From IMG/VR virus record IMGVR_UViG_2802429245_000006: a stretch of DNA of 40,663 bases. One strand, written 5' to 3'. The DNA is from a virus (Duplodnaviria; Heunggongvirae; Uroviricota; Caudoviricetes). The position numbers and the translations under genes were made by a program. Shown one piece after another: positions 5,308-40,453 of the stretch; within the stretch, counting starts at the first letter, position 1, and the number at the start of each line of letters is the position of its first letter. The notes under the pieces are model-generated. The model searched no databases. It was not told the DNA's origin and saw only the letters and a list, made by a program, of their open reading frames with translations.

Positions 5308-5343
5308 GATTTATTCCTTATGAATGAGTTAGCGGTATAAATG

Positions 5344-5374
5344 AAAAAGCCGCGTCTCCCGGAGAAGACGCGGC
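5344..5374 (-). terminator. Intrinsic terminator downstream of the DUF905 gene
   Basis: Stem gccgcgtc/gacgcggc (5349-5356 / 5367-5374) followed on the minus strand by TTTTT (plus-strand 5344-5348). Confidence 0.5.
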
Positions 5375-5397
5375 CTGATGGGGGAAATGAATGACGT

Positions 5398-5622
5398 TTA
5401 TTGTCTGAGAAGCCCTTCACTGGCGAGCCGCGTATTAAGTTGTTTGCCGGCATCGGATTCAAAATTCCAGCACCGCCAGCGTAGCTGCCCTTCAGCATTA
5501 CGGATAACCAGCCGGAAATGCGTTCCCTGGTCATCTTCAGTAAACACATTGCGGTAAGCTGTTGTGACGGCAACCGCCTGTTCGCGTGAGAAAGGGCCTT
5601 CGGCAATAAACGTGATGTACAA
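5398..5622 (-). CDS. DUF905-family small protein (YkfF-like)
   Basis: 74-aa ORF with ...[49 protein letters not shown]..., resembling the DUF905 proteins of CP4-type islands. Confidence 0.65.
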
Positions 5623-8550: not shown

Positions 8551-8767
8551 CAGCTTTTCCTTACAGAGGGTGAATAAAAAAGCCGGTACCCACAAAAGTG
8601 GATACCGGCAGGTACAAAACAGCATGGTCAGATAAAGTGGTTTTTCCCGGACATAAATGCTTCCCCTCTCTCATCCGCCAGAGAAGTATCAGTCCGTTGT
8701 GTGCAATTCCGTTCTGCATGATGAAGAGATTCAGCTGCCTTTTCGCAGACCATTAACCACTATAAAC

Positions 8768-8803
8768 GATCGATAGCAACGATCGATACCTATTTTATCG
8801 ATC
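8768..8803. promoter_or_regulatory. agn43-type phase-variation switch: three clustered GATC sites (Dam methylation / OxyR operator)
   Basis: GATC at 8768, 8781 and 8800 inside a cgatcg-rich tract about 220-250 bp upstream of the flu start codon. Confidence 0.75.
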
Positions 8804-8922
8804 GTTTTATTCTATTAACAGCAAAGCAGTCACGCAAGAGAAACAGGAGGGGTATGAGGTGTTTGTGTCATGTTTTCAGTTGGTTAACGCAATGTAATCG
8901 GGTATTTCCCCTGGCAGACTGT

Positions 8923-12207: not shown

Positions 12208-12541
12208 CTCGAACCCCAAGACCGGCAATGGAATCGCTTTGTAGAGCTAGAGTTAGTGCCGCATCCTCGTATTGAGCACAGCGAAGCGATTGAGCTAGAC
12301 TATGGCATGACGGGGGGCGCTCTAAAGGTTGAGATTAGAGCGGCCTCGGCAGGCTACTTACTCAGACAATGGAATGTGGATTGTTCTACCAACGCCACAC
12401 TCCAAGATGGTGGAGCTCAATTGTACTTAAAGAACAGAGCAACACTTTATGGAGTTAAAAACATCATGCTAGCTCCAGGGATTGAAAAAGAACTTGGTAA
12501 CTAATGCACAAAAACGAACTTGGCGCAGGGAATAAATTTTG

Positions 12542-15874: not shown

Positions 15875-15877
15875 TTT

Positions 15878-16564
15878 ATGAACTCACCTTGGATATTTCC
15901 TGACAACGCAAAGTTCGGTCGAGTCGTGCCTAAGAACAAAATATATGAGCACAGCGCGGCAAGCACTGGGTTGAAGTCACTTTTTGTAGAGCAAGTAGAG
16001 CAAATCCTTTGGGCTTACAAGCTATCGCCTAGCACGCTGAATATTCCTCAAACCAGTGAGGTCAGTGAAATACAGGTTTTCAGTGTGAAGCTTAAAGGTG
16101 ACTCGATAGACGACAGCGTACTAAAAGCCATTGATTTGGCGATACCTTTTCCCATTCTATTTGAGGTATGGGAAGCTCGCGGTGAGCAAGGCCACTACGT
16201 TGCTTGCTATAAGCGTAAGGCAGAAAATGATCAGTCAAAATGGTTTTGTAGCCGCTATTTACGTTCAGAAACCTTCTATTCAAGTGATTCATTAGCAGTG
16301 ACTTCAGAAGTTTTGGGTTTGCCTACCGCTATCGATATGGCGGAGCTGTATCAAAAGCTTCTTACTCGCTTGTTACCCATACCCCAACGAGCCGCTGAGA
16401 GTATAGAAGAGGCTATTCAACGCCTGGAGGCAATTCAGGCATTGGAAAAGCAAATCTCGCAATATAAGAAGAAGGTTCATGCCGAGAAACAGTTTAACCG
16501 CAAGGTTGAGCTCAATAAGCAGTTAAAGAATTTAAGGTGCGAGCTTCAAGAGTTACTCGCATAA
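15878..16564 (+). CDS. Small accessory protein (DUF4391-like, with C-terminal coiled coil)
   Basis: 228-aa ORF starting 3 nt after the helicase stop. Family assignment is from recalled gene neighbourhoods, not a verified match. Confidence 0.55.
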   Translation: MNSPWIFPDNAKFGRVVPKNKIYEHSAASTGLKSLFVEQVEQILWAYKLSPSTLNIPQTSEVSEIQVFSVKLKGDSIDDSVLKAIDLAIPFPILFEVWEARGEQGHYVACYKRKAENDQSKWFCSRYLRSETFYSSDSLAVTSEVLGLPTAIDMAELYQKLLTRLLPIPQRAAESIEEAIQRLEAIQALEKQISQYKKKVHAEKQFNRKVELNKQLKNLRCELQELLA

Positions 16565-16637
16565 AGAATAAACAATTTCAATCAGTTAAATAGTGCCACA
16601 TGCTTTTTATGCAAGGCATCACGCAAAAGGTGAACAC

Positions 16638-18629
16638 ATGGACAAATTAAAGATGCACAGCCCCGACATGACGCAGCAAAACATAGAGAAAATTCAGGCG
16701 TTGTTTCCGAACTGTGTGACGGAATCAAGAGGAGCTAACGGAGAGCTAAAGTTAGTCATTGATTTTGACCAACTTAAACAAGAGCTATCAAATTCAATCG
16801 TTGAAGGCCCGCAAGAGCGCTATCAGCTGAACTGGCCCGGTAAGCGAGAAGCACTACTAACAGCGAATGCACCTATTGCCAAAACCTTAAGACCTTGTCG
16901 AGAAGAAAGTGTCAATTTTGACACCACTAAAAACCTCTTTATTGAAGGCGATAACCTTGATGCATTGAAACTGCTACAAGAGGCATATATTGGAAAAGTC
17001 AAATTAATATATATTGATCCACCTTATAACACCGGTAATGACTTTATATATGAAGACGATTTTTCTGAAAATGCAGAGAGCTTCTTAATAAAGTCCAACC
17101 AGAAAGATAGTGATGGTAATAAATTAGTAGCGAATACAGAAGCTAATGGCAGATTTCACTCGGATTGGCTAAGCATGATGTACTCACGTTTGAAATTGGC
17201 TCGTAATCTACTAAGTGATGAAGGAGCTGTGATTATCTCAATTGATGAGAATGAACACAGCAACATAGTGAAATTAGGTGGTCTTATATTTGGCGATGAA
17301 AACTTTTGTGGCGAAATAGTCTGGAAAAATAGTAGTAAAAATGACCAGAAATATGTCTCAATACAACACGAATACCTTGTTATATTTGTTAAATCAAAGC
17401 AAAACAATAAGGGGGATTGGGTTGAGAAAAAAGAAGGCCTAGACCAAATTTATCAAGCGTTTGATGGTTTTAAACGCAAACATGGCAATGACTGGGATGC
17501 AATACATGCAGATGCGCTTGAATGGTATAGGAGTTTCCCTGCATCCAATCCAATTTCATCAAGTAAACATTATAGCTGGATGGACGAGCGCGGTGTATAT
17601 TTCCCAGATAATATTTCAGGCCCAAACGATGGTCAGTATGTTTATGACGTCATCCATCCTGTGACTAACAAACCATGCAAAATGCCTTCTACAGGATGGC
17701 GCTATCCAGAATCAACGTTAATTGAAAGAATAGCTGATAATCGAGTGCACTTTGGAAAGGATCATAAAACTGTTCCAAACAATAAAACGTATCTAAAAGA
17801 TACTGAATATCAGAGCCTTACGAGCATGCGCTTCGTTGATGGTCGCAGCGCTTCTAAAAGGCTGCAAACCCTTTTCGGTGATAAAGTTTTTACAAACCCT
17901 AAAGATGAAATTTTATTAAAAGATTTATTTAAAGCAATTGGTGTATCAGAAAAAGATATAGTCCTTGATTTCTTTGCAGGTTCTGCATCGACGATACATG
18001 CTGTTTTTGAACTCAATAAAGAAACTGGCAGTAATTGTTCGTGTATCCTAGTGCAGCTTCCAGAAGATCTGAAAGAAATGTTAAAAACGGCTAAAGGTTC
18101 TGCTAAGAAAGTCACGCAGAACGCTATCAATTATTTGAAAAATAAAGGCCTACCACAAACAATTAGTGAAATTGCAAAAGAACGTATTCGACTTTCGGGG
18201 CAAAAGTATACCGAAGATTTCGATATTGGATTCCGAGTTCTCAAAGTAGATACCTCCAACATGGCGGATGTGTACTACTCTCCAGATCAAGTTACTCAGG
18301 GTTCGTTAGACTTATTGGTAGATAATATTAAAGCAGACCGCACTGATGAAGATTTACTTTTCCAGGTTCTACTTGATTGGGGCGTCGATTTAACCTTGCC
18401 AATTAGAAAAGAAACGATTCAAGGTAAATCGGTATTCTTTGTCGATGATGATGCACTGGTGGCCTGTTTTGATCTGCGCATAAATGAAGCTTTGATTAAA
18501 GAGTTAGCCACAAAAGAGCCACTTCGCGTAGTGTTCCGTGATGACGGCTTTGAGTCTGATGCAGTAAAAATCAATGCTGAGCAGATTTTCAAGCAAGTGT
18601 CGCCACATACTGAAGTTAAAGCGATATAA
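16638..18629 (+). CDS. mod: Type III Mod-like N6-adenine DNA methyltransferase (beta class)
   Basis: Catalytic motif [12 protein letters not shown] precedes AdoMet motif [12 protein letters not shown], the order typical of Type III Mod. ATG at 16638 with AAGGTG upstream; the ORF-track frame begins 15 codons earlier. Confidence 0.85.
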
Positions 18630-18638
18630 GGAGGGATC

Positions 18639-18728
18639 ATGACAAATTTTACCGGATTAAAATTTGCACACAGCCTTGTCGCAGACAAGGTGTGCCCGAA
18701 GTGTTGCGTACATGGAGGTGCGCAATGA
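18639..18728 (+). CDS. Possible 29-aa leader peptide (uORF) coupled to res
   Basis: ATG at 18639 is 4 nt after AGGAGG; translation [29 protein letters not shown]; its TGA overlaps the res ATG (ATGA at 18725-18728). Confidence 0.3.
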
Positions 18729-21700
18729 AACTTAAGTTCAAAGTCCAACCTTATCAAACTGTTGCCGTAGAGTCGGTTGTTGACTGCTTTGCGGGGCAAC
18801 CTAACACATCCGGCGTTACCTACCGAATCGACCCTGGCGTTGCCAAGGATAAGTTTGGCAATGCTGGTTGGGATATGAGCGACCAAGACGGTTTTAAAAA
18901 TGCAGAACTCGCGATCACTGAATCGCAGTTATTGCAAAATATTCATGGTGTTCAAAGTAGACAGAACCTCCCTGTTTCAGAAGCGTTAGTCAGCAATGCT
19001 AGCGCTAAGATTAATCTCGATGTTGAAATGGAAACCGGTACTGGTAAGACATATTGCTACATCAAAACCATCTTTGAGATGAATAAGCGCTATGGCTGGA
19101 GCAAATTTATTATCGTTGTGCCTAGCATCGCCATTCGTGAAGGTGTTTACAAGTCGCTGCAAATCACAGGTGAGCATTTTGCTCAGAATTACGACGGTAA
19201 AAAGGCCCGGTTCTTTATCTATAACTCGAAACAATTGCACCAGTTAGAGAGTTTTTCTTCTGACAGTGGCATCAATGTGATGGTCATTAATATTCAAGCC
19301 TTTAATGCTTCAGGAAAAGACAATAGACGTATTTATGAAGAGTTGGATGACTTTCAGTCTAGGCGTCCTATTGATGTTATTAGTGCAAACCGTCCAATCC
19401 TGATTTTGGATGAGCCACAAAAGATGGAAGGCAAGAAGACATTAGATGCCTTAGCCAAATTCAAACCACTGATGGTACTTCGATATTCGGCCACGCATAA
19501 GACAACACATAATAAAGTGCATCGCCTGGATGCGCTTGACGCTTATAACAATAAGCTGGTTAAGAAAATTGCCGTTCGTGGTATTTCAGTAAAAGGCTTG
19601 GCGGGAACGACAGCCTATCTATATTTGGAATCCATCGAGATCTCGAAAAAAATGCCAGTGGCTCGCATTGAGATCGAAGTTAAACAACAAAATGGTATTA
19701 AACGCATACCCAAGAAGGTTACTAAGGGCGATAATCTTTTTGATCTTAGCAATGGTCTGGACCAGTACCGTGACTTTGTGGTTACTGATGTCAACGCGAT
19801 TAACGACACGGTTGAATTCAAAAATGGCCATGTTTTAACCACGGGCGATGCGACGGGAGACGTGACCGAAGAGACCATTCGCCGAATACAGATCCGCGAG
19901 ACAATTAAAGCGCACCTTGAAAAAGAAAAAACACTTTTTAACCAGGGTATAAAGGTTCTCTCTCTCTTTTTTATTGACGAAGTCGCAAAGTATAGGGACT
20001 ACTCTCAAGCCGATGAAAAAGGTGATTATGCTCGCGTTTTTGAAGAAGAGTACTCCTTGCTTGTACAGGAATATCTTGATGAGTTGACTCTTTTACCGAG
20101 TGAGCAGACTGATGCCTATAAAGCCTATCTATCGGCCATTGAAGGCTCCAGAACGCATAATGGTTACTTCTCAATTGATAAGAAATCAAATCGTCTTCAG
20201 AACCCCGGCTTTAAAGTCCGTGGTGAAGATGCCGGGCTATCAGACGATGTAGATGCTTATGATTTGATTCTAAAAGATAAGGAAAAGTTACTTTCGTTTG
20301 AAGAGCCTACTCGGTTTATCTTTTCACATTCGGCCTTGCGCGAGGGGTGGGATAATCCAAACGTATTTGTCATGTGTATGTTAAAACACAGCGACAACAC
20401 TATCTCTCGTCGTCAAGAAGTTGGGCGTGGTTTACGTCTGGCCGTCAATAAACATGGTGACAGACAAGACCATCCGGCAACTGTGCATGAAATTAATGTT
20501 TTGTCGGTGATTGCAAGTGAAAGCTATAAAGACTTTGTCACGAATCTGCAAAAAGAGATCAGCGAGTCTCTCTCAGCGAGACCTAGAAAAGCAGATGAAG
20601 CTTATTTTACGGGTAAGACAATTACAACAGCTGATGGACCTGTAGAAGTAACACCTGTCATGGCTAAGCAAATTTATAAGTATTTGCTTAAAAATGATTA
20701 TACCAATGACGTTGACGATTCAATTGCGCCATCATTCCACCAGGCTAAGGCTAGTGGACAGTTAGCGCCAATGCCTGCTGAGTTAGAGCCTTACCGCGAG
20801 CAAATATTGACCCTGATTGACGGTGTTTATAGTGAAGCGCAATTGCCAGGTGTTGGTGATGATCGTAAACCTAAAAACAATCCGTTGAATGCTAATTTTG
20901 ATAAGAAAGAGTTTCAGGAGCTTTGGCACAAAATCAATCGCAAAGCGGTTTATAAGGTTGATTTTGATTCGTCTGAGTTGATTAAAAATTGTATTCGGGT
21001 ACTCAATAAAGAGCTTAAGGTAACGCCTCTTCAGTACACGATTCAAGATGGTGTTCAATTGGATGGCATTACCGACGAACAACTCAAAGCTGGACAAAGT
21101 TTCAAGGTGAAAAACACTGAGACTGAAACTCATCAATCGAGCATTCATTCTGCTGTTCGTTATGACTTGGTTGGTAAGTTGGCTGAAAATTGTGTGCTGA
21201 CTCGCAAAACAGTCGCCGAAATACTGATGGGTATAGAACCTGTAGTATTTGCACAATTTAAGCAGAACCCTGAGCATTTTCTCGCTGAGGCTTCACGCCT
21301 TGTGAAAGAGCAAAAGGCATCTGTGATCATCGAGAAGCTATCATATGATCCAACGAACGAATCTTATGATGTTGATATATTCACGGCAGAGCAAAAAATC
21401 ACTGATATGACAAAAGCCGTTAGTGGCGTTAATAAGCATATTTATGATTATGTTGTCGTTGATTCACAAGGCATTGAACGGGACTTTGTTACCGAGCTTG
21501 ATACAAGCAAAGAAGTCGTGGTTTATGCAAAACTGCCTCGTGGTTTTCTGATACCGACGCCTGTTGGCGACTACAACCCTGATTGGGCGATTTCTTTCAA
21601 AGAAGGAAGTGTTAAACACATTTACTTTATTGCAGAGACTAAAGGAACGATGTCTTCGCTTGAATTGCGTGGCATAGAAGATCGCAAGATTGAATGTGCT

Positions 21701-21802
21701 AGGAAATTCTTTGAAAAAATTAATGCAGAGATAACGAGTGAAAACGTCAAATATGATGTTGTAACGAGTTACTCGAAATTAATGGAAGTCATAAGCGGTT
21801 AG
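18725..21802 (+). CDS. res: Type III Res-like restriction subunit (helicase plus C-terminal PD-(D/E)xK nuclease)
   Basis: Walker [11 protein letters not shown], motif [13 protein letters not shown]-like RYSATHK, motif [12 protein letters not shown]-terminal ...NPDW...FIAETKG nuclease-like motif. ATG at 18725 with GGAGG upstream. Confidence 0.85.
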
Positions 21803-25411: not shown

Positions 25412-26845
25412 TCAGAGGTCAAAGTTAGGTGCGACATACCACGTTTTTCCCTCAATAACCGGTACAACTCTGTTTTGTTCATACAGTAAATCCAGTAACC
25501 AATTGATTTTATCCTTTTTCCGGAAACGGTTCGGACCACGCTGTAAAATGTCATTTTTTTTCATACAGGGGATCCCCTTCTCAATGCAATAGCTTTTTAT
25601 CCAGTTAAAAAGTTCAAGCTCCTCTGGAATGAGTCGCACAGGTACGGTCAGGGCAGAGTTTTCAAACGTTAACGGACTGGATAACCGAACATACTCATTA
25701 CCATACCATATTGCTAATTCTCTCGCCATTTCAGCAGTGTAGGGGGAAATGTCACCTTCCTCACCGCTAAAATGGTGAATAAGTCCTGCCAGTCTTGCCA
25801 TATACTCTGCATTTTTAGCAGCATATTCTCTGAAGTCTCTTAAAGGCCCCAGAACCGACATCTTCGATTCCACATCGTTGTAATAGTCCGTCCAGATTCT
25901 GGCTGCCTGAGGAGAAAAGTGAAGGCAACGCCGCTCTCCCCTCATCGCCAGGCTTTCATCAATGAGTTCATTTATCCTCTGTTCAAACAAATCCTGATAC
26001 TGTGATGAATAATTATCTCCGGTTATTATCCTTGTCCCCTGCGTTGATGTTGGTTGACACATCAAAAACCTTGCATGATGTCCCGACGTTTTCACAAGTT
26101 CTTTTTTTCGTGTACAAAAACCTTTGTGGTAAACATCAGGCTGAACCATCACCGATATCGTCAGTCTTGGTTCCTTCAAAAAAATTCCGGGAGATGATTT
26201 CCTGTCGATGAAAAGAGAACCACCATCCCACAAAGAGTTAAGTATTCCCAGTTTACTCATTGCCCGGCTGTCAAAAATTATCCCACCTTCACTGGATACA
26301 AGAGCAAAAGAGCGATTGCTATCAGAATAATATTTTAACATTCCCTCTATCGTTGTATCATTAAAAATTGTTCGATGTATCTGTGGTGGAACAGGACACT
26401 TATTCAGATGTGTTTTAAGCTCTGATTCTGTTGTCTTATAATCTTTACCGGCACGAATCTCTTTATGAAGTTTTGACTCCAGTGCTTTTTGTTTTTGCTC
26501 CCATATTTCCTTTTCTGTACTGTAATTCTCAACCAGTTTCGCGTATTCTTCCGCCAGGGCTTCATCCCTGAGATAAAATGCTTTCATAAACACTTTATCC
26601 ACGGTCGTTTTCCTTTCACCAGAATCAGCCAGAATCATAGAGTAAATATTAGAGGACCCACGTAAATTTCCTGGCCTGCACACATCAACCTGATTCTGAC
26701 AGGCAATTGACATCGCTGTTAATGCTGCAGTTATCGCCATAGCTATAGGTGTCTGTGTATTCTTTTGAGTTTCAATTATTGCATTTCTCGCCAGCGGTGG
26801 CATTGCATATATCGGACAAGGATTTTCTGGTGCAAGTAAGCACAT
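25412..26845 (-). CDS. yfjI: YfjI-like protein (DUF3987 family)
   Basis: Long ORF; ATG at 26845 with GAGG upstream is preferred over the ORF-track start at 26863. Position between alpA and yfjJ matches CP4-57. Confidence 0.7.
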   Translation of the reverse strand: MCLLAPENPCPIYAMPPLARNAIIETQKNTQTPIAMAITAALTAMSIACQNQVDVCRPGNLRGSSNIYSMILADSGERKTTVDKVFMKAFYLRDEALAEEYAKLVENYSTEKEIWEQKQKALESKLHKEIRAGKDYKTTESELKTHLNKCPVPPQIHRTIFNDTTIEGMLKYYSDSNRSFALVSSEGGIIFDSRAMSKLGILNSLWDGGSLFIDRKSSPGIFLKEPRLTISVMVQPDVYHKGFCTRKKELVKTSGHHARFLMCQPTSTQGTRIITGDNYSSQYQDLFEQRINELIDESLAMRGERRCLHFSPQAARIWTDYYNDVESKMSVLGPLRDFREYAAKNAEYMARLAGLIHHFSGEEGDISPYTAEMARELAIWYGNEYVRLSSPLTFENSALTVPVRLIPEELELFNWIKSYCIEKGIPCMKKNDILQRGPNRFRKKDKINWLLDLLYEQNRVVPVIEGKTWYVAPNFDL

Positions 26846-27420
26846 AAATGCCTCTCTTTTCATTAATGGGTTAGTAAAGTAGCAGCAACTCCCGCTATAA
26901 TAGCGAAAATAGCTGCTGTTCAGACCTAATGTTCTGAAAAATACAGAATATCTGTAGATCTGATGTTTAATAACCGATAAGGTTAATTCAGTTCAGACTG
27001 TGTTATTTACCACGAAATATCATTCATGTTTCTCATTCTTAACACCTCCTAAAATTATTTCACTAACACCTTCCCCCCGGTCTTTTTCCTTTCTCAGGAA
27101 TCAGCCAGAACCATAGTGTAAATATTAACGGGCCCACGTAAATTTCCGGAGCTGCACACGTCAATCTGATTCTGACAGGCAATTGACATCGCTGTTAATA
27201 ATGATGTTGTAGTCATAGCCAGAGATGCTTTTTCATTTTGTTGAGTTTCAATTATTGCATTTCCAGTCATTGATGGTTGCGCATATACTGGATACGGAGT
27301 ATCCGGTTTGATGTAAGACATAAATATTCCCTTTTTTCGTAATGACTTTCGGTTATAGCAGCTATTTCCGCTACAATAGCAACAATAGCTGCTATACAGA
27401 CTGGATATACTGAAAATACA
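26603..27420. repeat. Tandem imperfect direct duplication (~350 bp, roughly 75-80% identical) of the yfjI promoter-proximal and 5' coding region
   Basis: 26603-26940 aligns with 27076-27420 by eye (for example gacaggcaattgacatcgctgttaat and gagtttcaattattgcattt occur in both). Confidence 0.75.
27094..27321 (-). pseudogene. Truncated duplicate of the yfjI 5' end
   Basis: 75-aa ORF MSYIKPDTPYPVYAQPSMTGNAIIETQQNEKASLAMTTTSLLTAMSIACQNQIDVC... parallels the N-terminus of the full gene and ends inside the duplicated block. Confidence 0.6.
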
Positions 27421-30790: not shown

Positions 30791-32107
30791 TCACCTTCTA
30801 CCAAACAGATTAACAACATTATTACCTGTCTGCTGTTGGTGGTTATTAACCCGGTCCTCCCAGATCTCAAGTGCTCTGCGTTTTTCTGGCAAATAATCGT
30901 ATCGATCATAATGTTTTGAACTGACATCGTTCAACGCATGATTTTGAATACGATCGCGGATTTCCTTACTGATTCCAGCTTCTCCCATTAACGTTTTACA
31001 GGTCCGACGTAAGTCACGTGCTGTAAAAATTTTAAAGTCAGGATTACAAGCCCGGAAATACATGATAGCGCGAGCCAGACTGTCCGTACGAACCGGACGC
31101 TTACCATTAGTCGAAAGCGGGAAAATGTAAGGGCTCGATTTTTCTTTTGTTAACTCCTGCACACAAGATAATTCCTGTAATGCTGATTCAGTCAACGGTA
31201 TCAAATGTTCTCGCTTATTTTTAGAGACATCCGCAGTCACCAGCAGCGTTTTTTGCTGAAAATCAACATCACACCACTGACTGGCGATCATTTCGAAGGG
31301 ACGTTGCCCCCCGGTATAGATACAGAATCGGATCAAATGTTGCATCAATAATCCAACGTTGGTTGCTTCAGCAAAATGTTCCATTAGAAAACGCAACTCT
31401 TCGAGTGTCAGCCAGGTGTCACCGACTTTTTCAGCAGATGACTGTTTCGGTATCACTGATACCGGATTGGCCTCCAGCCCAAAAGTAATCCCTACACTTG
31501 TGTTCATCGGATCGTTATCAGCTTTCAGACCATAGTTAAATGCAGCCATCAGGTAAGAACGGATCCGGTTAGAGTGAACCACTGCACCGCGCTGAATGAT
31601 CCCGGCCAGGATATGTTTAATCTGTCCGGAAGTCACATCTTTAGCTTTAGTCTCACGGGGGATCACTGTATAGCATTCATTTTCAAGGCGTTTCAGAACA
31701 TCCTGCCATGTTCTCTTATTATCAATTTTCATTTTGTTAACATAACCATGAATCAATGCTTCAAATGAGCCCTGTGATTGATGGAGTTGTATCCGCTGCT
31801 GTTCTGCAAGCTGTTGTCGCTCCAGTTCTGTCTGGGGATCCTTTCCTTCAATGAGCCAGGCACCATACTTTTTTGCCAGTTCATTCGCTGTAGCCAGTTT
31901 CATCTCAGGCCATATACCCAATTGAATGAATCTTTCTTTTTTCCCTTTTTCCACGTAATAGCGGAAATAGAAAATTTTGCTGCCAGAAGACTGAACTTTG
32001 ATGCCAAGTCGTCCAGTGCCACGTTGAGAACTGTTGCTCCAGACATAGAACGATGTCTTTTTTGCTTTCAATGCTCGGATAGCTGTTTCAGTTAGATTGA
32101 CGGCCAT
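30791..32107 (-). CDS. int: Tyrosine-type site-specific integrase (P4/CP4-like)
   Basis: 438 aa; C-terminal catalytic region with ...HALNDVSSKHYDRYDY... and ...RDLRRTCKTLM... typical of tyrosine recombinases; ATG at 32105-32107. Confidence 0.9.
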   Translation of the reverse strand: MAVNLTETAIRALKAKKTSFYVWSNSSQRGTGRLGIKVQSSGSKIFYFRYYVEKGKKERFIQLGIWPEMKLATANELAKKYGAWLIEGKDPQTELERQQLAEQQRIQLHQSQGSFEALIHGYVNKMKIDNKRTWQDVLKRLENECYTVIPRETKAKDVTSGQIKHILAGIIQRGAVVHSNRIRSYLMAAFNYGLKADNDPMNTSVGITFGLEANPVSVIPKQSSAEKVGDTWLTLEELRFLMEHFAEATNVGLLMQHLIRFCIYTGGQRPFEMIASQWCDVDFQQKTLLVTADVSKNKREHLIPLTESALQELSCVQELTKEKSSPYIFPLSTNGKRPVRTDSLARAIMYFRACNPDFKIFTARDLRRTCKTLMGEAGISKEIRDRIQNHALNDVSSKHYDRYDYLPEKRRALEIWEDRVNNHQQQTGNNVVNLFGRR

Positions 32108-32906: not shown

Positions 32907-33449
32907 TTACTTGTCTTTATCCGGCTGAAACTTATCAGGCACATTTCCGGTAGTTTCCATCAGATAATCGGACAGCATTCGCGGGATGTTTTCATCAAGT
33001 TTTGTGCATGCGTTACAGGCTCTGACAACTTCTTTTTTCAGGCCATCCAGCATGACGGGGGTCATCTGTGGGAAGCTCCTTTGCATAGTAAGCGGCAGGC
33101 TGTCCATGATTGATGAAATCTGACTCGCCAGTTTTGAAAGCGCGTACATGCAAAACTCTGTATCAATCACGTCACCGCGATCGCGCTCGTTTTTAAGTTC
33201 CTGCGCCTCCGCCTGTGCTGTCAGTAATCTGATCCTGACTCGTAAGAGTTCATCATCATCAATCTCGCCTTTGTCGTTTGTAAGCTGGCTAATTGCATTG
33301 TTAACCCTATTGTCTATCACGCTGGCAACATCATAAAACGCCTCACGGCCTTTACGTTCAACGGGAGTCACTCCCCACTTGTCGAATGCTGTAGCACTTA
33401 CCCGGCAGCTTTGCGCCATGGTTTTTTTGTTCATCAGGTGCGATTTCAT
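32907..33449 (-). CDS. Terminase small subunit, lambda Nu1-like
   Basis: ...LTAQAEAQELKNERDRGDVIDTEFCMYALSKLASQISSIMDSLPLTMQRSFPQM... parallels lambda Nu1 as recalled. Start uncertain: ATG at 33449 or 33434. Confidence 0.75.
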   Translation of the reverse strand: MKSHLMNKKTMAQSCRVSATAFDKWGVTPVERKGREAFYDVASVIDNRVNNAISQLTNDKGEIDDDELLRVRIRLLTAQAEAQELKNERDRGDVIDTEFCMYALSKLASQISSIMDSLPLTMQRSFPQMTPVMLDGLKKEVVRACNACTKLDENIPRMLSDYLMETTGNVPDKFQPDKDK

Positions 33450-33650
33450 CAATATCCCAACTTGGTCAAGGTTTCAGGTTGGTGTGTTGGTGTTATCTTT
33501 CCCTTTTTATTCATGGAGATAGAGCAAACAACAAAACCACCACCACCACCCTGAAAAAGCTCATAAATAGCGAAAAACCGCGAGGTCGCCGCCCCGTAGC
33601 CTACCGGATCGCCGGAAAGGACCCGCCAGCCAGAACGGGCCCTAATTTCA

Positions 33651-35721: not shown

Positions 35722-36078
35722 TCAGTGGCCTGCCCCTGCTGGCCTTTTTTTGCCGCCCGGTCGCGCCGTTCGCGCACTGATTACGCTGTCTGCGATAACC
35801 TGCCAGCCCTGCCGCGTTTCGCCGTTCTGGCCTGTCCACTGGCTTACCTGCATGTTACCCGCCACGCTCACCAGTTCGCCTTTGTGGTGTTTTGCCAGTG
35901 CGTCGGCCTGTCTGCCAAACGCCAGGACGGATAACCACATCGTCGCCGTTCCGTCATCTGCCTGGCTGCACGGAAGGGGGACCGCCATACTAGCCATCGC
36001 CATTTGTGTACCCTTGCTGGTGGTCTTTAACTGCGGGTCAGCCACCAGCCGTCCGTAAGCCGCTATCTGTGCTGTCAT
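35722..36078 (-). CDS. SSB-like OB-fold protein (118 aa)
   Basis: ...YGRLVADPQLKTTSKGTQMA...VSQWTGQNGETRQGWQVIADSV... resembles single-stranded DNA-binding proteins; start overlaps the upstream stop (ATGA). Confidence 0.5.
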   Translation of the reverse strand: MTAQIAAYGRLVADPQLKTTSKGTQMAMASMAVPLPCSQADDGTATMWLSVLAFGRQADALAKHHKGELVSVAGNMQVSQWTGQNGETRQGWQVIADSVISARTARPGGKKRPAGAGH

Positions 36079-36317
36079 GCTGTCTGCTCTCCGGTTTTAA
36101 CGTTGATGGTTGTTACCTGTTCCGCTTCGGCAATCTCCCGTTCTGTCATCGTGGCAAAGTTTGCAGCTGCCGTTGTCATGAATGCGCTAATCAGTTCGGG
36201 ATGTGCTTTCGCATATCCTTCCCCGGCGTTGCGGTCGATGATTTTTATCGCCACTCTCAGCCAGTGCTCTGTAAGGTCAATAGCGCGGTAGTGTGGTTGT
36301 TTGCGGTTTGCCTTCAT
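36075..36317 (-). CDS. Hypothetical protein (80 aa)
   Basis: ORF between the iteron array and the SSB-like gene; stop overlaps the SSB-like start. Confidence 0.4.
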   Translation of the reverse strand: MKANRKQPHYRAIDLTEHWLRVAIKIIDRNAGEGYAKAHPELISAFMTTAAANFATMTEREIAEAEQVTTINVKTGEQTA

Positions 36318-36356
36318 AGTTCAGATCTCAATTTTTCGTATATATATACAAAACAG

Positions 36357-36680
36357 TGCGGGTTATGCGGGTTAGCGGGTTAGCGGGTTATCTTCGCTTG
36401 CTAAGTATTTTTTATTCATTAATATCAATACATTACAAAATTAACTGTTTACTGTTTAGCCGTGGCGTAACCCGCAAAATGCTCAAAATAACCCGCAAAC
36501 GGGGTTTTTTCTGCGGGTTACGCGTGGCTGTTTGCTGTCACTTCCTGTTATTCATCTGCGGGTTATAATCGCACTTTTGTGGGTTATAACTGCCGTTTTG
36601 CGGGTTACGTGCGGGTTATTGATTTCCTTTTTATTCATGCAGTTAATGCACTTATACACAGAGTAACCCACATAACCCGC
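36357..36680. repeat. Iteron array: at least 13 copies of GCGGGTTA / TAACCCGC in both orientations (putative replication origin)
   Basis: Four tandem copies at 36357-36392 and dispersed copies at 36468, 36488, 36513, 36558, 36579, 36600, 36611, 36664 and 36673; adjacent AT-rich tatatata tract at 36340-36350; immediately downstream of the primase-helicase-like gene. Confidence 0.75.
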
Positions 36681-36703
36681 AACTTTTCACCTCACACAGG
36701 GGG

Positions 36704-38827
36704 TTAATCTTCTGCCTCAGGCTGGAACATCAGCACGTAAAAAACATGCTGCTTCCCCCCAATTTTGCCGAGAGCCTTTTTCTTGTAACGGCGATCGTTA
36801 CCCGCTTCCAGCATTCCGGCAGCACTCAACGCGCGGGCAAAGTGGGACGGGTTAAATCCCTGTGCGATCTCCCCCTCAAACACATGAGGAAACGTGTAAA
36901 AACGGAACTCATCATCTTCATTTCTGATACTCCCCTTTCTGTATCCGGCAAGGTCTTTAATCGGTAAATCACGTTCATCACTGTTTGGGTAAGGAAGGTA
37001 TCGACTGAACCCGAACGACGACAAAAACGCCTCAGCCTGTTCAACCATCTGTTTAAATTCCCTGTTACCCGTGCCGAACTCCTTCACCCAGGCATTAAAG
37101 TTATGCTGTATTGCGTCCCGGCATTCCTGCGCGGCCCAGCCAGTTACATGACCGGAAAGCACAAGCGCGGCCTCCAGTATGGCGAAACGCTCACCCACGC
37201 GGTGGACCTGCTCGCCGTAGCTCTCCGGTATCAGGTTGCGCCACCGTTCGCGGCATTCCCTTACCGTATCCTTTGCCTCCTGCTGGTGGCCTGCCAGCCA
37301 TTTAACCCACTCACGACCCGCTGCCCCGTGATTTTCTGTCCAGGCATCCTTTAACGCGTCTGCGTGCGCCTTTCCGGTGCTGTATTCGTGAAAGTGCGTG
37401 GCTTTTTCCATCGGAACGTTAAGCAGGCGGACAAGCTGCCCCGCTTTGACTTTTATCCCCTCCGTTTTGAGGAATGTCTCAACGTCCATTTCTCCGGTGC
37501 TGATTGCCACCGTGCGCCAGTGTTTTATCTCCCGGTTGCCGCCGTCCTTCGCCCCCTGTAATTTCCCGGAACCGTTAAACAACGTATAGGCTGACGTGGA
37601 CACCTCCCGCGCGTTTCCGGCCTGGCCTATTTCATCCAGGGGTAACAGCCCGTCGTTGTGCGCCTCTGCCTCGTTAGCGATACCTAACGCTGTGCCGTAC
37701 CAGGTCAGCCGTTGTGCGTCCGGCTCTCCCCATAAACTTGATGCGATGTTCTGCGTGGTGGTTTTCCCTGCCGATGACTGTTCGAAAAGATGTACCCCGA
37801 AGCCGTCAGCACCAACAAGGCCAATCAAAGGTGCTGCCAGTGACGTGGCAACACCCAGCATCATGGACGGATTGCCACCAGCCAGCCGCGCCACGCAGTC
37901 GCGCCAGCCCTCCGACGTACCCGCAACCGAATAGCCATTAACAGTGGCACTTTTTCCGGTAAACAGGATCGGTTTTTCAGAATCACCAATGATTGAGCCG
38001 TCCGGCATGATATACGCGCCAAAATGCCAGCCCGTTGTTGTGCTTAGCTGCCATTCCTCATGGCTTCCGCTTAACTGCATCCAGTCAGCCAGGATAGCCC
38101 TGTATTTGCCGTTTGTTGTCACGTTCAGCCCGTGATCTTTAAGCAACCGCCAGCCGTCACGGTCGCCAATGCCACCACACGGGATCGCCATTGTGATGAC
38201 TTCATGGTTTGCTAATTTTTTCCAGCGCATCACGCGGTAATGCTCTTTACCGATCGTCCCTGTTCCCAGTAGTTCAAGCGGAGAACATAACCACGTCTCA
38301 GGCCGGATAATTTCGCCTGACTGCTTATCCACTTTGGGCGTTACCCAGAAAACACCATCGACGCGACTTTCAACGCGGGGCTTTAATTCATCATCCTGAT
38401 AGCATGGCTCTTTTTTCTTTACAGGCAGTTCAACTACCTTTTTCTTTTCCGCCTGCTCTGCCCGTTCACGTTCCAGATATTCACGCCAGTTCTCCCGTTT
38501 CTGGCTGTGCATTCCTTCAGGGTAATAATCAGCATCCCTGACACCTGCCGCTGCCAGTTTCTGCCCGATGGTATTAACAAGCCCCGGACGCAATAACCCC
38601 GCCTGATAGAGACGCACGCGATAGCGTCCGTCCGGTACGATTTGCAGGTTGTCCAGTTCGGCAAGTTGTTGCTCTCCAAGCCAGACAGGAGGCACGTTAT
38701 CGCCAGCCAGTCGCCCGTCCTGTTCCTGCCACTGCTTCGCATGTGCCCACGCATCACTACCCGCAAAAATGATGACTTCCGTCATTTTGTCACGTGGCTG
38801 GTGTTTTAAATTTGGCGCTTTTTTCAT
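36704..38827 (-). CDS. Primase-helicase-like replication protein (P-loop ATPase, DUF927/P4-alpha-like)
   Basis: 707 aa from the ATG at 38827; Walker A-like FEQSSAGKTT and Walker B-like LLPLDEIG; position next to the iterons. Confidence 0.7.
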   Translation of the reverse strand: MKKAPNLKHQPRDKMTEVIIFAGSDAWAHAKQWQEQDGRLAGDNVPPVWLGEQQLAELDNLQIVPDGRYRVRLYQAGLLRPGLVNTIGQKLAAAGVRDADYYPEGMHSQKRENWREYLERERAEQAEKKKVVELPVKKKEPCYQDDELKPRVESRVDGVFWVTPKVDKQSGEIIRPETWLCSPLELLGTGTIGKEHYRVMRWKKLANHEVITMAIPCGGIGDRDGWRLLKDHGLNVTTNGKYRAILADWMQLSGSHEEWQLSTTTGWHFGAYIMPDGSIIGDSEKPILFTGKSATVNGYSVAGTSEGWRDCVARLAGGNPSMMLGVATSLAAPLIGLVGADGFGVHLFEQSSAGKTTTQNIASSLWGEPDAQRLTWYGTALGIANEAEAHNDGLLPLDEIGQAGNAREVSTSAYTLFNGSGKLQGAKDGGNREIKHWRTVAISTGEMDVETFLKTEGIKVKAGQLVRLLNVPMEKATHFHEYSTGKAHADALKDAWTENHGAAGREWVKWLAGHQQEAKDTVRECRERWRNLIPESYGEQVHRVGERFAILEAALVLSGHVTGWAAQECRDAIQHNFNAWVKEFGTGNREFKQMVEQAEAFLSSFGFSRYLPYPNSDERDLPIKDLAGYRKGSIRNEDDEFRFYTFPHVFEGEIAQGFNPSHFARALSAAGMLEAGNDRRYKKKALGKIGGKQHVFYVLMFQPEAED

Positions 38828-39123
38828 TTCTGCTCTCTCCACGCGGCAATCATGTTTTTCAGTTCCTGTAGTTTTTTATCCACATTCACACGTGACACAT
38901 GGTTATTTCTGGAAAGCGGGATTTCCCGCCTGAATCTGCTAATAAAGATCTCCACGTTCAGCGAACTATGAAATGAATAGCCATCACGAATAAAATACAC
39001 ACGGTCAAACATTATCGATTTTACTGTTACTCTGTTGCCGTTCTTATCCCGATAAATAGCGCCGGGGATAATTTTGGGATGTGCATAACCGCTGGCAGTC
39101 AAGCCAGATAAATACGTTCTCAT
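38824..39123 (-). CDS. Hypothetical protein (99 aa)
   Basis: ATG at 39123; stop overlaps the primase start (ATGA). Confidence 0.45.
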   Translation of the reverse strand: MRTYLSGLTASGYAHPKIIPGAIYRDKNGNRVTVKSIMFDRVYFIRDGYSFHSSLNVEIFISRFRREIPLSRNNHVSRVNVDKKLQELKNMIAAWREQK

Positions 39124-39129
39124 GATTAT

Positions 39130-39450
39130 TTATCCCCGATTTGAATCAGTATTCGCTTTCTTTATGGCATTTAATGCATCTGTGGCATTTTCAATGGTGC
39201 ACCGTAACGAAATATCAAAATGTCCAAGCATTGCCAGTAACAAACCGATATTACCCATATCAATGCGCATGGCCTTTTCGTCATAGTCCTCATTTTCTGA
39301 CGCATGCCACATCAGGCTACCAATTGACGCAACGGCCATTGATATATTGTCAGTCGCCCCATCCGCAGCGGAATAAACCTTTTTAGCAATATCATGCTCA
39401 CAGTTAAAATGCGGATTAATCAGGTACTGGTAATTTGACATATCAGGCAT
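39130..39450 (-). CDS. Hypothetical protein (106 aa)
   Basis: ORF in the same co-directional gene string; no family recognised. Confidence 0.45.
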   Translation of the reverse strand: MPDMSNYQYLINPHFNCEHDIAKKVYSAADGATDNISMAVASIGSLMWHASENEDYDEKAMRIDMGNIGLLLAMLGHFDISLRCTIENATDALNAIKKANTDSNRG

Positions 39451-39646
39451 GGCACACCCCCTGACGAATACGGGCGGCGAATACCATCACGCAGCCAGCC
39501 GGGGATTGCTGGCGTGCTTCCTGTTCGCTGGTGGCCACGATGGTAATCACACGCGGTTTTGCGGCGCTCAGGGCGATAAAACGCCAGGCGAATTTATTCA
39601 GGTTGTGCGAATCCCGCCCTTGCGGGTGTATGGTATGATTTCTCAT
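39443..39646 (-). CDS. Hypothetical small protein (67 aa)
   Basis: ATG at 39644-39646 with GAGGTA upstream; corresponds to the C-terminal part of the 334-aa ORF-track frame, which I consider spurious as a whole. Confidence 0.35.
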   Translation of the reverse strand: MRNHTIHPQGRDSHNLNKFAWRFIALSAAKPRVITIVATSEQEARQQSPAGCVMVFAARIRQGVCHA

Positions 39647-39742
39647 AGCTACCTCGATACTCTCGTTATCGTTGGTGGTTAGAAGCCCTGCGAGTGGTAA
39701 CGACACTTGCGGGGCTTTGTTTTTTGTTGCACTTACTGTTAA

Positions 39743-39786
39743 TGTACGTACGTAATATTGATGATAATAGGAGTTACGTACGTACA
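39743..39786. promoter_or_regulatory. Operator-like inverted repeat overlapping the RBS and start of the RHH gene
   Basis: TGTACGTACGTAA (39743-39755) and TTACGTACGTACA (39774-39786) are exact reverse complements, separated by 18 bp containing TAGGAG. Confidence 0.5.
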
Positions 39787-39977
39787 TGTCAACATTAAAG
39801 CGGGATAAATCACCACGCGGCGAGGGATGGTCGCCGACATTCCAGATACGAATTAGCAAAGAACTACGCCAGCAAGTAAACGAGGCAGCAACCGCCGATG
39901 GCCTAACCCTCGGCAATTGGTTTAAAGAATTAGCTCGTGCCGAACTAAAGCGACGTGGCATTGAACCTAAAGGCTGA
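39786..39977 (+). CDS. Ribbon-helix-helix (Arc/MetJ/CopG-like) putative repressor, 63 aa
   Basis: ...FQIRISKELRQQVNEAATADGLTLGNWFKELARAEL... has the beta-strand/helix pattern of RHH proteins; divergent from the satellite gene string. Confidence 0.5.
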   Translation: MSTLKRDKSPRGEGWSPTFQIRISKELRQQVNEAATADGLTLGNWFKELARAELKRRGIEPKG

Positions 39978-40453
39978 TGTATGACTGAAAAGCAGACCGA
40001 TAACAAACTTTCTCTACCAGAGAATAAACCAGCAGGCTTCTTACCAAGAAAAATCCTTGATGAGATCAAACGCCGCCAGCGGCGCAAGGCCAAAGAGCTG
40101 GAGTAACCATCACCAGCGCCGTGGTGCGGTGAACTGTGGCGCACAGGGTTACAGGTATCTACGATGACTGACAAATCATTAAAGAAATTATCCTCATCCA
40201 AGAAAAAACAACGCAAAAATGCGGTAAACGAACATGAACCGGAGAGATTCGCACCATGTGCGTTTATCCTTGAGAAGTACCTTAAAGAGTATTCTAGGAA
40301 AATACGCTCATTGCAGGCATGGCAGCGAATCGAGCCAGACTGATAGCATTGCCCACCAGCCAACAACCTGGTATTCTGGATATGCTCAAGTTTAGTGTTA
40401 TGCCACTGGCGGCCCTCTGCGGTCGCCTTTGTTTTATGTGCCATCACTCCCCC

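What the first reader, a model, noticed from the sequence alone, without database searches (positions are those of the whole stretch)
36357..36680. Dense iteron array GCGGGTTA/TAACCCGC next to the primase-helicase gene
At least 13 copies of an 8-bp motif in both orientations within about 320 bp, beginning with four tandem copies and flanked by an AT-rich tract, located just downstream of the replication protein gene. This is the architecture of a primase-helicase-dependent origin, as in P4 ori/crr. It is not a CRISPR array: the repeats are too short, irregularly spaced and bidirectional.
Basis: seen in the sequence. Interest (0 to 1): 0.55.

Follow-up and report, generated by a model that had tools for sequence, protein, structure and literature searches.

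The report
Replication origin of a phage satellite
The repeat cluster is almost certainly the replication origin of a phage-parasitic chromosomal island (an E. coli PICI satellite), placed right after the gene for the initiator-helicase that reads it; this is a real feature of a known, expected kind.

Summary
GCGGGTTA occurs 11 times in the 40.6-kb window, all within 36358-36680, plus two GTGGGTTA variants. The array fills the non-coding gap between a DUF927 replication gene and the next gene.

The host element is an E. coli phage-inducible chromosomal island with the same gene order as EcCICFT073, whose equivalent rep-proximal iteron region was shown experimentally to act as an origin.

Comparative evidence is strong:
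- Four Rep classes in the same syntenic slot each carry their own iteron.
- In 80 Enterobacterales relatives, nearly every DUF927 Rep is followed by the same array architecture, with at least 17 iteron variants.
- The variant tracks the Rep C-terminal ~100 residues, not the neighbouring genes.

The origin has two modules. Each has opposed iterons around an AT-rich spacer. In other islands the modules lie 8-11 kb apart, like P4 crr and ori. The distal module also occurs as an orphan in islands with unrelated Reps.

This Rep lacks the zinc-ribbon and Toprim primase domains of its longer relatives. It belongs to the SaPI Rep/Cch helicase family, not the P4 alpha family.

Verdict: a new member of a known kind, of modest interest. 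No binding or replication was tested here.

The parts
36704..38827 (-). Rep gene (707 aa). It has a DUF927 initiator-helicase core (residues ~173-440 by Pfam), a ~150-aa N-terminal domain shared with other EcCI Rep classes, and a C-terminal ~100 aa inferred to read the iterons.
   Evidence: Pfam DUF927 at 3.7e-47. PDB 8tch 'Pathogenicity island protein' at 5e-17 and Cch 5dgk at 1.7e-4. N-terminus is 50% identical to the CFT073 Pri-Rep by BLASTP and 64-69% to four relatives' Reps, spanning three Rep classes, by global alignment. C-terminal covariation with iteron class. Weak HTH_56 hit at 6e-4.
36318..36703 (.). Whole non-coding gap between rep and the next gene; the proposed origin, made of modules B and A.
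   Evidence: Positional equivalent of the tested EcCICFT073 ori.
36558..36680 (.). Module B (next to rep, crr-like). Four iterons on + at 36558, 36579 (GTGGGTTA), 36600 and 36611. A 45-bp spacer at 36619-36663, about 30% GC. Two iterons on - at 36664 (GTGGGTTA) and 36673.
   Evidence: This module alone follows rep in L005/L092 and L008.
36358..36520 (.). Module A (far from rep, ori-like). Four tandem iterons on + at 36358-36390. An AT-rich tract at 36391-36467, with a minimum of 18% GC. Iterons on - at 36468 and 36489, and one on + at 36513.
   Evidence: The same module lies 8.5-10.8 kb from rep in L008 and L092, and occurs as an orphan in L007 and L094.
36332..36353 (.). Conserved box TTTTTCGTATATATATACAAAA at the outer edge of module A, just upstream of the 80-aa gene.
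   Evidence: A matching box, TTTT(G)..TATATA..C(G)AAAA, was found in 11 of 78 arrays belonging to several different iteron classes and in Klebsiella phage P12620-1. Its function is unknown.
36652..36660 (+). Single DnaA-box-like match (TTATACACA) in the module B spacer.
   Evidence: Conserved only in the close GCGGGTTA lineage, not across the family. Weak evidence; listed for completeness.
36075..36317 (-). 80-aa gene immediately after the origin (PHROG 1231, unknown function).
   Evidence: It is 84-90% identical to islands that carry different iterons, so it is not the specificity determinant.
35722..36078 (-). SSB gene of the replication module.
   Evidence: Pfam SSB at 2.8e-16. Same position in EcCICFT073.
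38824..39123 (-). DUF4222 gene upstream of rep; a conserved neighbour in all EcCI islands examined.
   Evidence: Only 34% identical to the O157 island, which has the same iteron, so it does not track the iteron.

Best explanation
The array is the vegetative replication origin of an E. coli phage-inducible chromosomal island (an EcCI-type PICI satellite), matched to the DUF927 Rep encoded immediately upstream.

Inferred mechanism, by homology with SaPI Rep:
- After the island is induced, Rep binds the 8-9-bp iterons (T)GCGGGTTA through its C-terminal domain, probably a winged helix.
- Rep assembles on the opposed iteron sets on either side of an AT-rich spacer, melts the spacer, and loads itself as the replicative helicase.
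- Priming is probably done by the host primase or by an unidentified activity, because this Rep has no recognisable primase domain.

The origin has two parts. Module B (36558-36680) lies next to rep. Module A (36358-36520) carries the most AT-rich tract and is the likelier melting site. The two modules probably cooperate as P4 crr and ori do.

Shown here: the sequence anatomy, the synteny, the homology and the covariation.
Inferred, not shown: binding, melting, helicase loading and the division of labour between the modules.
For: 1. Synteny with a tested origin. The island has the gene order of EcCICFT073: icd-like, DUF4222, Rep, gap, 80-aa gene, SSB, capsid, decoration. In that island, pri-rep plus the iteron region immediately 3' of rep drove plasmid replication (PMC6092414).

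2. The same slot holds a different iteron for each Rep class:
- DUF927: GCGGGTTA.
- 584-aa P4-family primase type (CFT073, ECONIH2): TGTCTACC.
- 607-aa type (RM13514): TGTTCACC.
- RepA-helicase type (042): AAGTGAGG.

3. The iteron follows only Rep residues beyond 150.
- Window versus O157 island: 94% identity in that region and the same iteron, although DUF4222 is 34% and the 80-aa gene 72% identical.
- Window versus ECONIH2: 80-aa gene 90% and SSB 91% identical, but Rep 22% and a different iteron.

4. Family-wide pattern. Among 80 DUF927-Rep loci from Enterobacterales, nearly all have arrays of up to 13 copies starting about 23-27 bp after the stop codon. They share the layout of opposed iterons around spacers of 52-86 bp, mostly 13-35% GC, and fall into at least 17 iteron classes.

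5. Iteron class covaries with the Rep C-terminus. The mutual-information z-score peaks at 8.5 for residues 675-694, against a baseline of about 2-3. At matched core identity of 0.6-0.7, C-terminal identity is 0.69 for pairs with the same iteron and 0.43 for pairs with different iterons.

6. Rep is homologous to SaPI Rep and Cch self-loading helicases. In those systems a C-terminal winged helix binds iterons located just downstream of rep, around a central AT-rich region (PMC9371898; PMC7581432).

7. Iteron columns are better conserved than spacer columns between the window and O157: 88% versus 74%, Fisher p = 0.003.

8. In E. coli complete genomes, module B matches 246 genomes, module A 300 and the full gap 302. 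So about 244 of the 246 genomes with module B also hold module A somewhere.
Against: Nothing here shows binding, melting or replication.

Both AlphaFold models were of low confidence (mean pLDDT 49 and 45), so the winged-helix fold of the C-terminus is not confirmed. The Pfam HTH_56 hit is below threshold and is found in only 7 of 70 relatives.

Module A also occurs intact in islands that encode unrelated Reps and have no DUF927 gene (L007, L094). Module A is therefore not always paired with its presumed reader.

The covariation analysis controls for shared ancestry only by matching core identity.

I could not see Fig. 2a of PMC6092414, so I do not know whether this iteron is already drawn there.
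Confidence: 0.85

Rival explanations
1. The array is a packaging site: cosB-like binding sites for the island's Nu1-like small terminase.
For: The island encodes a Nu1-like TerS. Copies of module A sit at the distal end of other islands, which is where EcCICFT073 carries its cos sites.
Against: A perfect lambda-type cosN (GGGCGGCGACCT) lies at 33583-33594 on the minus strand, directly upstream of the TerS gene and about 2.8 kb from the array. Islands with entirely different packaging modules, such as the HK97-type cf-PICIs L003 and L092, carry the same iterons together with the same Rep. The iteron class tracks the Rep C-terminus.
Confidence: 0.02
2. The array is an operator or promoter region: binding sites for a transcription factor such as AlpA, PerC or DUF4222 that controls the downstream SSB-capsid operon.
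For: The array sits between genes of one transcription direction, directly upstream of the 80-aa, SSB and capsid genes. A conserved TATATATATA box lies about 20 bp before the next start codon.
Against: No sigma-70-like promoter was found in 36000-37000. The iteron changes with the Rep class while the flanking genes stay similar, and DUF4222 does not track the iteron. Thirteen sites in two opposed sets around AT-rich spacers is origin architecture, as in SaPI and EcCICFT073. A promoter embedded in the origin is not excluded, and the two roles could coexist.
Confidence: 0.05
3. The array is mainly a copy-control or incompatibility element, or a decaying relic, and not the site where replication starts.
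For: Orphan copies of module A exist without a matching Rep. The tandem copy number varies from 2 to 4 between strains. In P4, crr next to the alpha gene is a required cis element but is not where replication starts (annotation).
Against: Iterons are better conserved than spacers and are intact even in orphans. The architecture is conserved across Enterobacterales. The most AT-rich stretch of the island lies inside module A. The equivalent region of EcCICFT073 is needed for replication.
Confidence: 0.06
4. The element is a true P4-family ori/crr read by a P4 alpha-type primase-helicase.
For: Both have 8-bp iterons in both orientations immediately 3' of the replication gene, as with P4 crr. Both are two-part. 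Both islands carry an Icd-like gene.
Against: The Rep has DUF927, not the P4-family primase_Cterm helicase. It has no zinc ribbon or Toprim domain. The iteron is not TGTTCACC. No sid, psu, delta or epsilon genes were seen. The gene order is that of EcCI PICIs.
Confidence: 0.02

Closest known systems
EcCICFT073 pri-rep-ori module (Gram-negative PICIs; Fillol-Salom et al. 2018, PMC6092414)
   Same: The island gene order is the same, and the array occupies the same slot immediately 3' of rep. Both have short iterons in both orientations in sets around AT-rich DNA. The 80-aa gene (84% identity), SSB (77%) and the Rep N-terminal ~150 aa (65%) are homologous.
   Different: The Rep core is unrelated: DUF927 here, against a P4-family primase_Cterm helicase there, with 23% identity beyond residue 150. 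The iteron differs: GCGGGTTA against TGTCTACC. This island also has a Nu1-like TerS with its own cosN.
SaPI Rep-ori (Staphylococcus aureus pathogenicity islands) and the SCCmec Cch helicase
   Same: The Rep is homologous (PDB 8tch 5e-17, Cch 5dgk 1.7e-4). The origin lies directly downstream of rep, with multiple short iterons on both sides of an AT-rich centre pointing in opposite directions, and a C-terminal domain gives specificity (PMC9371898; PMC7581432; covariation).
   Different: The host is Gram-negative. The iterons are 8-9 bp rather than 5-6 bp. There are two iteron/AT-rich modules rather than one. There is an extra N-terminal domain and no separate pri gene.
Satellite phage P4 ori and crr with the alpha protein
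   Same: Both use 8-bp iterons in both orientations. P4 crr lies directly 3' of the replication gene, and a second iteron cluster (ori) lies elsewhere. Relatives of this island split modules B and A by 8.5-10.8 kb in the same way.
   Different: The protein family and the iteron sequence differ. In this window the two modules are contiguous. The alpha protein has a zinc-ribbon and Toprim primase, which this Rep lacks.
EcCIEDL933-type capsid-forming PICIs (cf-PICI)
   Same: An O157-type island (L003), with HK97 capsid, protease and portal genes, carries a 94%-identical Rep core and the same GCGGGTTA two-module origin. EcCIEDL933 replicates after induction (bioRxiv 10.1101/2022.09.08.507074).
   Different: The packaging module differs: HK97-type heads there, lambda E/D-like capsid genes plus Nu1-like TerS here. 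The origin itself is not described in that paper.

Membership tests
PICI/SaPI-type Rep-ori module | The origin lies immediately 3' of the rep gene, in a non-coding gap within the same transcription unit. | tested here: met
   The array starts 23 bp after the rep stop codon, in a 386-bp gap with no annotated gene.
PICI/SaPI-type Rep-ori module | Multiple short iterons in sets flanking an AT-rich region, with opposite orientation on the two sides. | tested here: met
   There are 13 copies in two modules, each with opposed sets around a spacer. The module A spacer has a minimum of 18% GC.
PICI/SaPI-type Rep-ori module | The Rep is an initiator-helicase whose C-terminal domain sets iteron specificity. 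| tested here: inconclusive
   Homology to SaPI Rep and Cch and covariation of the C-terminus with iteron class support this. The fold is not confirmed, and binding was not tested.
PICI/SaPI-type Rep-ori module | It resides in a PICI, with integrase, AlpA-type regulator, replication module, packaging or interference genes, and a size of about 8-15 kb. | tested here: met
   The orthologous island in strain A36 shows integrase, HTH, icd-like, DUF4222, Rep, SSB, capsid, decoration, AlpA-like HTH and TerS genes. The window itself ends before the integrase.
PICI/SaPI-type Rep-ori module | Rep plus ori drive autonomous replication. | not testable with these tools
   This needs cloning and a replication assay. 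It has been shown only for EcCICFT073.
P4 ori/crr with alpha protein | An alpha-type protein: zinc ribbon, Toprim primase and P4-family (primase_Cterm) helicase. | tested here: not met
   Pfam and NCBIfam find only DUF927 and Cch-like matches. There is no PF08273, PF13362 or TIGR01613 hit.
P4 ori/crr with alpha protein | Type 1 iteron TGTTCACC. | tested here: not met
   The iteron here is GCGGGTTA. TGTTCACC is found in P4 and in the EcCIRM13514 array.
P4 ori/crr with alpha protein | Two separate cis elements (ori and crr), kilobases apart. | tested here: not met
   The two modules are contiguous in the window. They are split by 8.5-10.8 kb in the relatives L008 and L092.
Iteron plasmids (pSC101, R6K, F or P1 type) | Direct repeats of 17-22 bp in one orientation, read by a Rep_3-type dimeric initiator, with DnaA boxes. 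| tested here: not met
   The repeats are 8-9 bp and bidirectional. There is no Rep_3 domain. A single DnaA-box-like match is not conserved across the family.
CRISPR array | Direct repeats of 24-48 bp, regularly spaced by unique spacers of similar length. | tested here: not met
   The repeats are 8 bp, in both orientations, with irregular spacing of 8-85 bp.
Lambda-type cos site | cosN flanked by cosQ and by TerS-binding cosB repeats. | tested here: not met
   cosN lies at 33583-33594, not in the array.

The most novel reading that the evidence does not exclude
Module A is a portable origin cassette specific to GCGGGTTA-reading DUF927 Reps.

By set arithmetic on three searches, about 100 complete E. 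coli genomes hold both modules without a contiguous copy. Two examined islands show what that can mean: module A sits 8.5-10.8 kb from rep and module B. That would be P4-like long-range ori/crr cooperation in an unrelated Rep family.

By the same arithmetic, about 56 genomes hold module A without module B. In the two islands examined it sits intact at the distal end of satellites that encode unrelated Reps. There it could allow those satellites to be replicated in trans by the DUF927 Rep of another satellite, a form of replication hitch-hiking between satellites.

Together with the 17 or more iteron classes that track the Rep C-terminus, this would amount to a readable specificity code governing which satellites can cross-replicate or exclude each other.
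Probability: 0.15. Interest if true: 0.6.

Novelty: new member of a known kind. Interest (0 to 1): 0.35.

Why it matters
This gives a precise, testable origin and initiator pair for a widespread class of E. coli and Enterobacterales phage satellites. About 300 of 5,426 complete E. coli genomes carry this iteron type.

The natural series of 17 or more iteron variants, paired with variation in the Rep C-terminus, is a ready-made dataset for working out how SaPI/Cch-type self-loading helicases recognise DNA. It could also help predict replication compatibility between co-resident satellites.

The feature itself is what a specialist would expect to find after a PICI rep gene.

Tried and rejected
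- **Structure prediction.** AlphaFold2 on the full Rep (12-sequence alignment) and on the C-terminal 130 aa (56 sequences) gave mean pLDDT 48.8 and 45.1. This is too poor for a fold search, so none was run. The secondary structure of the C-terminal model (two helices, then a beta-hairpin) is only suggestive of a winged helix.
- **Searches with the C-terminus.** A profile of the C-terminus against PDB sequences gave no hit. Pfam HTH_56 matched below threshold.
- **N-terminal 150 aa.** No Pfam hit even at E = 10, so its function, primase or otherwise, is unresolved.
- **DnaA involvement.** One DnaA-box match at 36652-36660 is conserved only in close relatives and is absent in the wider family. 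Rejected as a family feature.
- **cos hypothesis.** Rejected because cosN is elsewhere.
- **Promoter and terminator scan.** No promoter was found. The five terminator-like hairpins all lie on the strand antisense to the genes and are made of inverted iterons.
- **Rfam.** Nothing in the region.
- **Phage collection.** The array matches only a 2.2-kb record that is itself a rep-ori fragment from an O157 strain.
- **Literature.** The held library has no primary papers on P4 crr, so I used the annotated P4 record instead. I could not view Fig. 2a of PMC6092414 to see which iterons are drawn there.

Full report
**1. The observation**

GCGGGTTA occurs 11 times on the two strands of the 40,663-bp window, and every copy lies in 36358-36680. 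Dinucleotide-preserving shuffles give a mean of 1.08 copies for the whole window and never more than 4. The Poisson probability of 11 or more in 323 bp is about 5e-31.

The flanks extend the consensus to about (T)TGCGGGTTAY.

From left to right on the + strand the layout is:
- four tandem copies at 36358-36390;
- an AT-rich tract, with a minimum 60-nt GC of 18% at 36398-36457, the lowest in the island and in the lowest 0.11% of the window;
- two copies on the minus strand, at 36468 and 36489;
- five on the plus strand, at 36513, 36558, 36579, 36600 and 36611;
- a 45-bp spacer;
- two on the minus strand, at 36664 and 36673.

Spacings of 21, 21, 21 and 11 bp recur.

The array fills the 386-bp gap between the stop codon of a 707-aa gene on the minus strand (36704-38827) and the start of an 80-aa gene (36075-36317). 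No gene is annotated in this gap in RefSeq orthologues.

**2. The host element**

The right-hand 8 kb of the window is a chromosomal island, with all genes on the minus strand. In order it encodes an HTH regulator, an Icd-like protein, a 106-aa protein, DUF4222, a DUF927 protein, the array, the 80-aa protein, SSB, a lambda E-like major capsid protein, a D-like decoration protein, an AlpA-like HTH and a Nu1-like small terminase. In the near-identical locus of strain A36 the integrase lies just beyond the window's end.

This is the gene order of EcCICFT073, the model Gram-negative phage-inducible chromosomal island.

[quoted passage not shown] They showed that pri-rep plus this region supports plasmid replication, and that deleting either one impairs it (PMC6092414). 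The CFT073 gap indeed carries at least 9 copies of TGTCTACC/GGTAGACA in both orientations around an AT-rich stretch.

**3. Evidence that the array belongs to Rep**

*Four Rep classes, four iterons.* Four E. coli islands with the same flanking genes carry four unrelated Rep cores, and each gap has its own iteron:
- DUF927: GCGGGTTA;
- 584-aa P4-family type (CFT073, ECONIH2): TGTCTACC;
- 607-aa type (RM13514): TGTTCACC;
- RepA-helicase type (042): AAGTGAGG.

*The iteron tracks only the Rep core.* All four share a ~150-aa N-terminal domain at 64-69% identity, so specificity must lie beyond it. The window and an O157-type island share 94% identity beyond residue 150 and have the same iteron, although their DUF4222 proteins are 34% and their 80-aa proteins 72% identical. 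The window and the ECONIH2 island share 90% (80-aa protein) and 91% (SSB), but their Rep cores are 22% identical and their iterons differ.

*The pattern holds across the family.* A scan of one genome per species returned 80 loci encoding DUF927-Rep relatives across Enterobacterales. In nearly all, an array of up to 13 copies starts 23-27 bp after the stop codon. At least 17 iteron classes appear on a shared 9-bp skeleton, for example GTTGGTTCA (the commonest), GTCGGTTCA, GTTGTCTCA, GTTGTCCCA, ACGGGTTA, GTGGGTTA and GTGTGTCA. The architecture is constant: two or three iterons, a spacer of 52-66 bp at 13-28% GC, and three or four opposed iterons. In about half the loci a second such unit follows.

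*The class covaries with the Rep C-terminus.* Column-by-column mutual information with iteron class is highest in the last ~100 residues. The mean z-score is 8.5 for residues 675-694, against about 2-3 elsewhere. At matched core identity of 0.6-0.7, pairs with the same iteron are 69% identical in residues 630-700, and pairs with different iterons are 43% identical.

*Iterons are conserved more than spacers.* Between the window and the O157 origin, identity is 88% in iteron columns and 74% in the rest (Fisher p = 0.003).

**4. The Rep protein**

Pfam finds only DUF927. The protein matches PDB 8tch, 'Pathogenicity island protein', at 5e-17, and the SCCmec helicase Cch (5dgk) at 1.7e-4. NCBIfam gives a Cch1 match.

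According to the literature, DUF927 proteins include Cch and the SaPIbov1 Rep. SaPI Reps are self-loading helicases. Their C-terminal winged helix binds iterons just downstream of rep, with an AT-rich centre, and they probably act as two hexamers (PMC7581432; PMC9371898).

The last 118 residues here give a sub-threshold hit to Pfam HTH_56, 'Cch helix turn helix' (E = 6e-4; 7 of 70 relatives). Both structure predictions were of low confidence, so the fold is not confirmed.

Most relatives are 900-940 aa and carry Prim_Zn_Ribbon, Toprim_3 and DUF927 domains, which makes them true primase-helicases. The window's protein lacks both primase domains. So 'primase-helicase' describes the family but has not been shown for this protein.

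**5. Two modules, and the P4 parallel**

In two other E. coli islands with the same Rep type, only the rep-proximal unit (module B, equivalent to 36555-36703) follows rep. The other unit (module A, equivalent to 36329-36520) lies 10.8 kb away in ExPEC XM and 8.5 kb away in TUM1881, at the far end of the island.

The annotated P4 genome shows the same logic. P4 crr, with ten 8-bp type 1 repeats, lies directly 3' of the alpha gene, and P4 ori, with six more, lies 4.7 kb away.

In complete E. coli genomes, module A matches 300 genomes, module B 246 and the full gap 302, and 141 genomes hold a contiguous copy. By set arithmetic, about 244 of the 246 genomes with module B also hold module A, about 100 of them not contiguously. 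About 56 genomes hold module A alone. This arithmetic assumes the three searches are comparable, so the numbers are approximate.

The near-absence of module B without module A suggests that Rep needs module A. With the island's most AT-rich tract inside it, module A is the likelier melting site.

**6. What remains unexplained**

Module A occurs intact, with 3 + 3 perfect iterons, at the distal end of islands whose Rep is of the 584-aa type (ECONIH2) or the RepA-helicase type (A19). Both have no DUF927 gene in the island, and ECONIH2 demonstrably carries its own cognate array next to its own rep, whereas A19's rep-adjacent gap has no copy of the 042-type AAGTGAG motif and was not scanned for other repeats.

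The distal copies share flanking sequence. The simplest reading is therefore mosaicism: the rep-origin cassette or the terminal cassette is exchanged by recombination through the conserved flanks. A role in replication in trans by another satellite's Rep is possible but untested.

**7. Rivals**

- A packaging site is excluded, because a perfect lambda cosN lies at 33583-33594, next to the TerS gene.
- A transcriptional operator is unlikely as the main role, because of the covariation with Rep and the lack of a promoter match. A promoter inside the origin could still coexist with it.
- Membership of the P4 family fails on protein domains and on iteron sequence.
- Iteron-plasmid and CRISPR definitions also fail.

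**8. Verdict**

This is the origin of a PICI satellite, of the SaPI/EcCI Rep-ori kind, with a P4-like two-part layout. It is a new member of a known kind and would not surprise a specialist. The family-wide pairing of iterons with the Rep C-terminus, and the split and orphan modules, are the parts worth following up.

Noticed in passing
window 32907-33594: A Nu1-like small terminase gene (32907-33452, minus strand) is preceded by a perfect lambda-type cosN, GGGCGGCGACCT, at 33583-33594. So this PICI carries its own TerS and cos, together with lambda E-like capsid and D-like decoration genes.
   Followed up: partly
L009 8055-8300 (EcCIRM13514, NZ_CP006027.1): The array after the 607-aa Rep of EcCIRM13514 uses TGTTCACC/GGTGAACA (9 copies). 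This is the same octamer as the type 1 repeat of P4 ori and crr.
   Followed up: partly
L007 20069-20221; L094 13036-13188: Intact GCGGGTTA module A (3 + 3 perfect iterons around an AT-rich spacer) sits at the distal end of islands whose Rep is unrelated (584-aa P4-family type, or RepA helicase) and which have no DUF927 gene. About 56 E. coli genomes appear to hold module A without module B.
   Followed up: partly
L092 626-1654 and 18534-19277 (E. coli TUM1881): A capsid-forming PICI with this Rep and origin is inserted inside a prophage large-terminase gene, which is annotated as two partial halves on either side of the island.
   Followed up: no
window 38378-38827 (Rep residues 1-150): The ~150-aa N-terminal Rep domain is shared at 64-69% identity by four relatives' Reps spanning three of the four E. 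coli PICI Rep classes (RM13514 not compared), although their helicase cores are unrelated. It has no Pfam match. The AlphaFold model there, at moderate confidence (pLDDT about 75-84), shows alternating strands and helices. Its function is unknown.
   Followed up: partly
window 36332-36353: The box TTTTTCGTATATATATACAAAA at the outer edge of module A recurs in arrays of many different iteron classes, and in Klebsiella phage P12620-1. It could be a promoter element, part of the unwinding region or a priming site.
   Followed up: partly
window 36358-36390 versus L001 and L003: The number of tandem iterons varies between strains: 4 in the window, 3 in strain A36, and 2 plus one degenerate copy in the O157-type island.
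   Followed up: yes
L093 (Klebsiella phage P12620-1, PQ569648.1) 5155-5432: A 106-kb record deposited as a phage encodes a 64%-identical DUF927 Rep followed by 11 GTTGGTTCA iterons in the same two-module layout. I did not check whether this is a phage, a phage-plasmid or an assembly that includes a satellite.
   Followed up: no
OR845527.1 (Escherichia phage ECO95 1-6-1, 2183 bp): This short 'phage' record from an O157:H7 strain is a fragment of a PICI rep gene plus its origin (72% protein identity, 78% DNA identity). It does not look like a phage genome.
   Followed up: partly
window 12539-21802: A separate island to the left encodes an SNF2/ResIII helicase (1111 aa), a DUF4391 protein, an N6/N4 DNA methylase and a ResIII protein with an endonuclease domain (1036 aa). 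This looks like a restriction-modification or defence cluster. A DUF3987 protein lies at 25412-26863 and an integrase at 30791-32107.
   Followed up: no
window 5701-8805: An AIDA/Ag43-type autotransporter (974 aa) has an Rfam IS102 sRNA match (69.8 bits) directly upstream, at 8569-8805.
   Followed up: no
window 35722-36078: The island's SSB ORF is 118 aa, against 136-140 aa in related islands. The orthologue in strain A36 is annotated as frameshifted, so SSB may be truncated here.
   Followed up: no
window 39443-40447: The 334-aa mechanical ORF is probably overcalled. Only its last ~80 residues match Icd-like or repressor PHROGs, and RefSeq annotates a 67-aa Icd-like gene there.
   Followed up: partly
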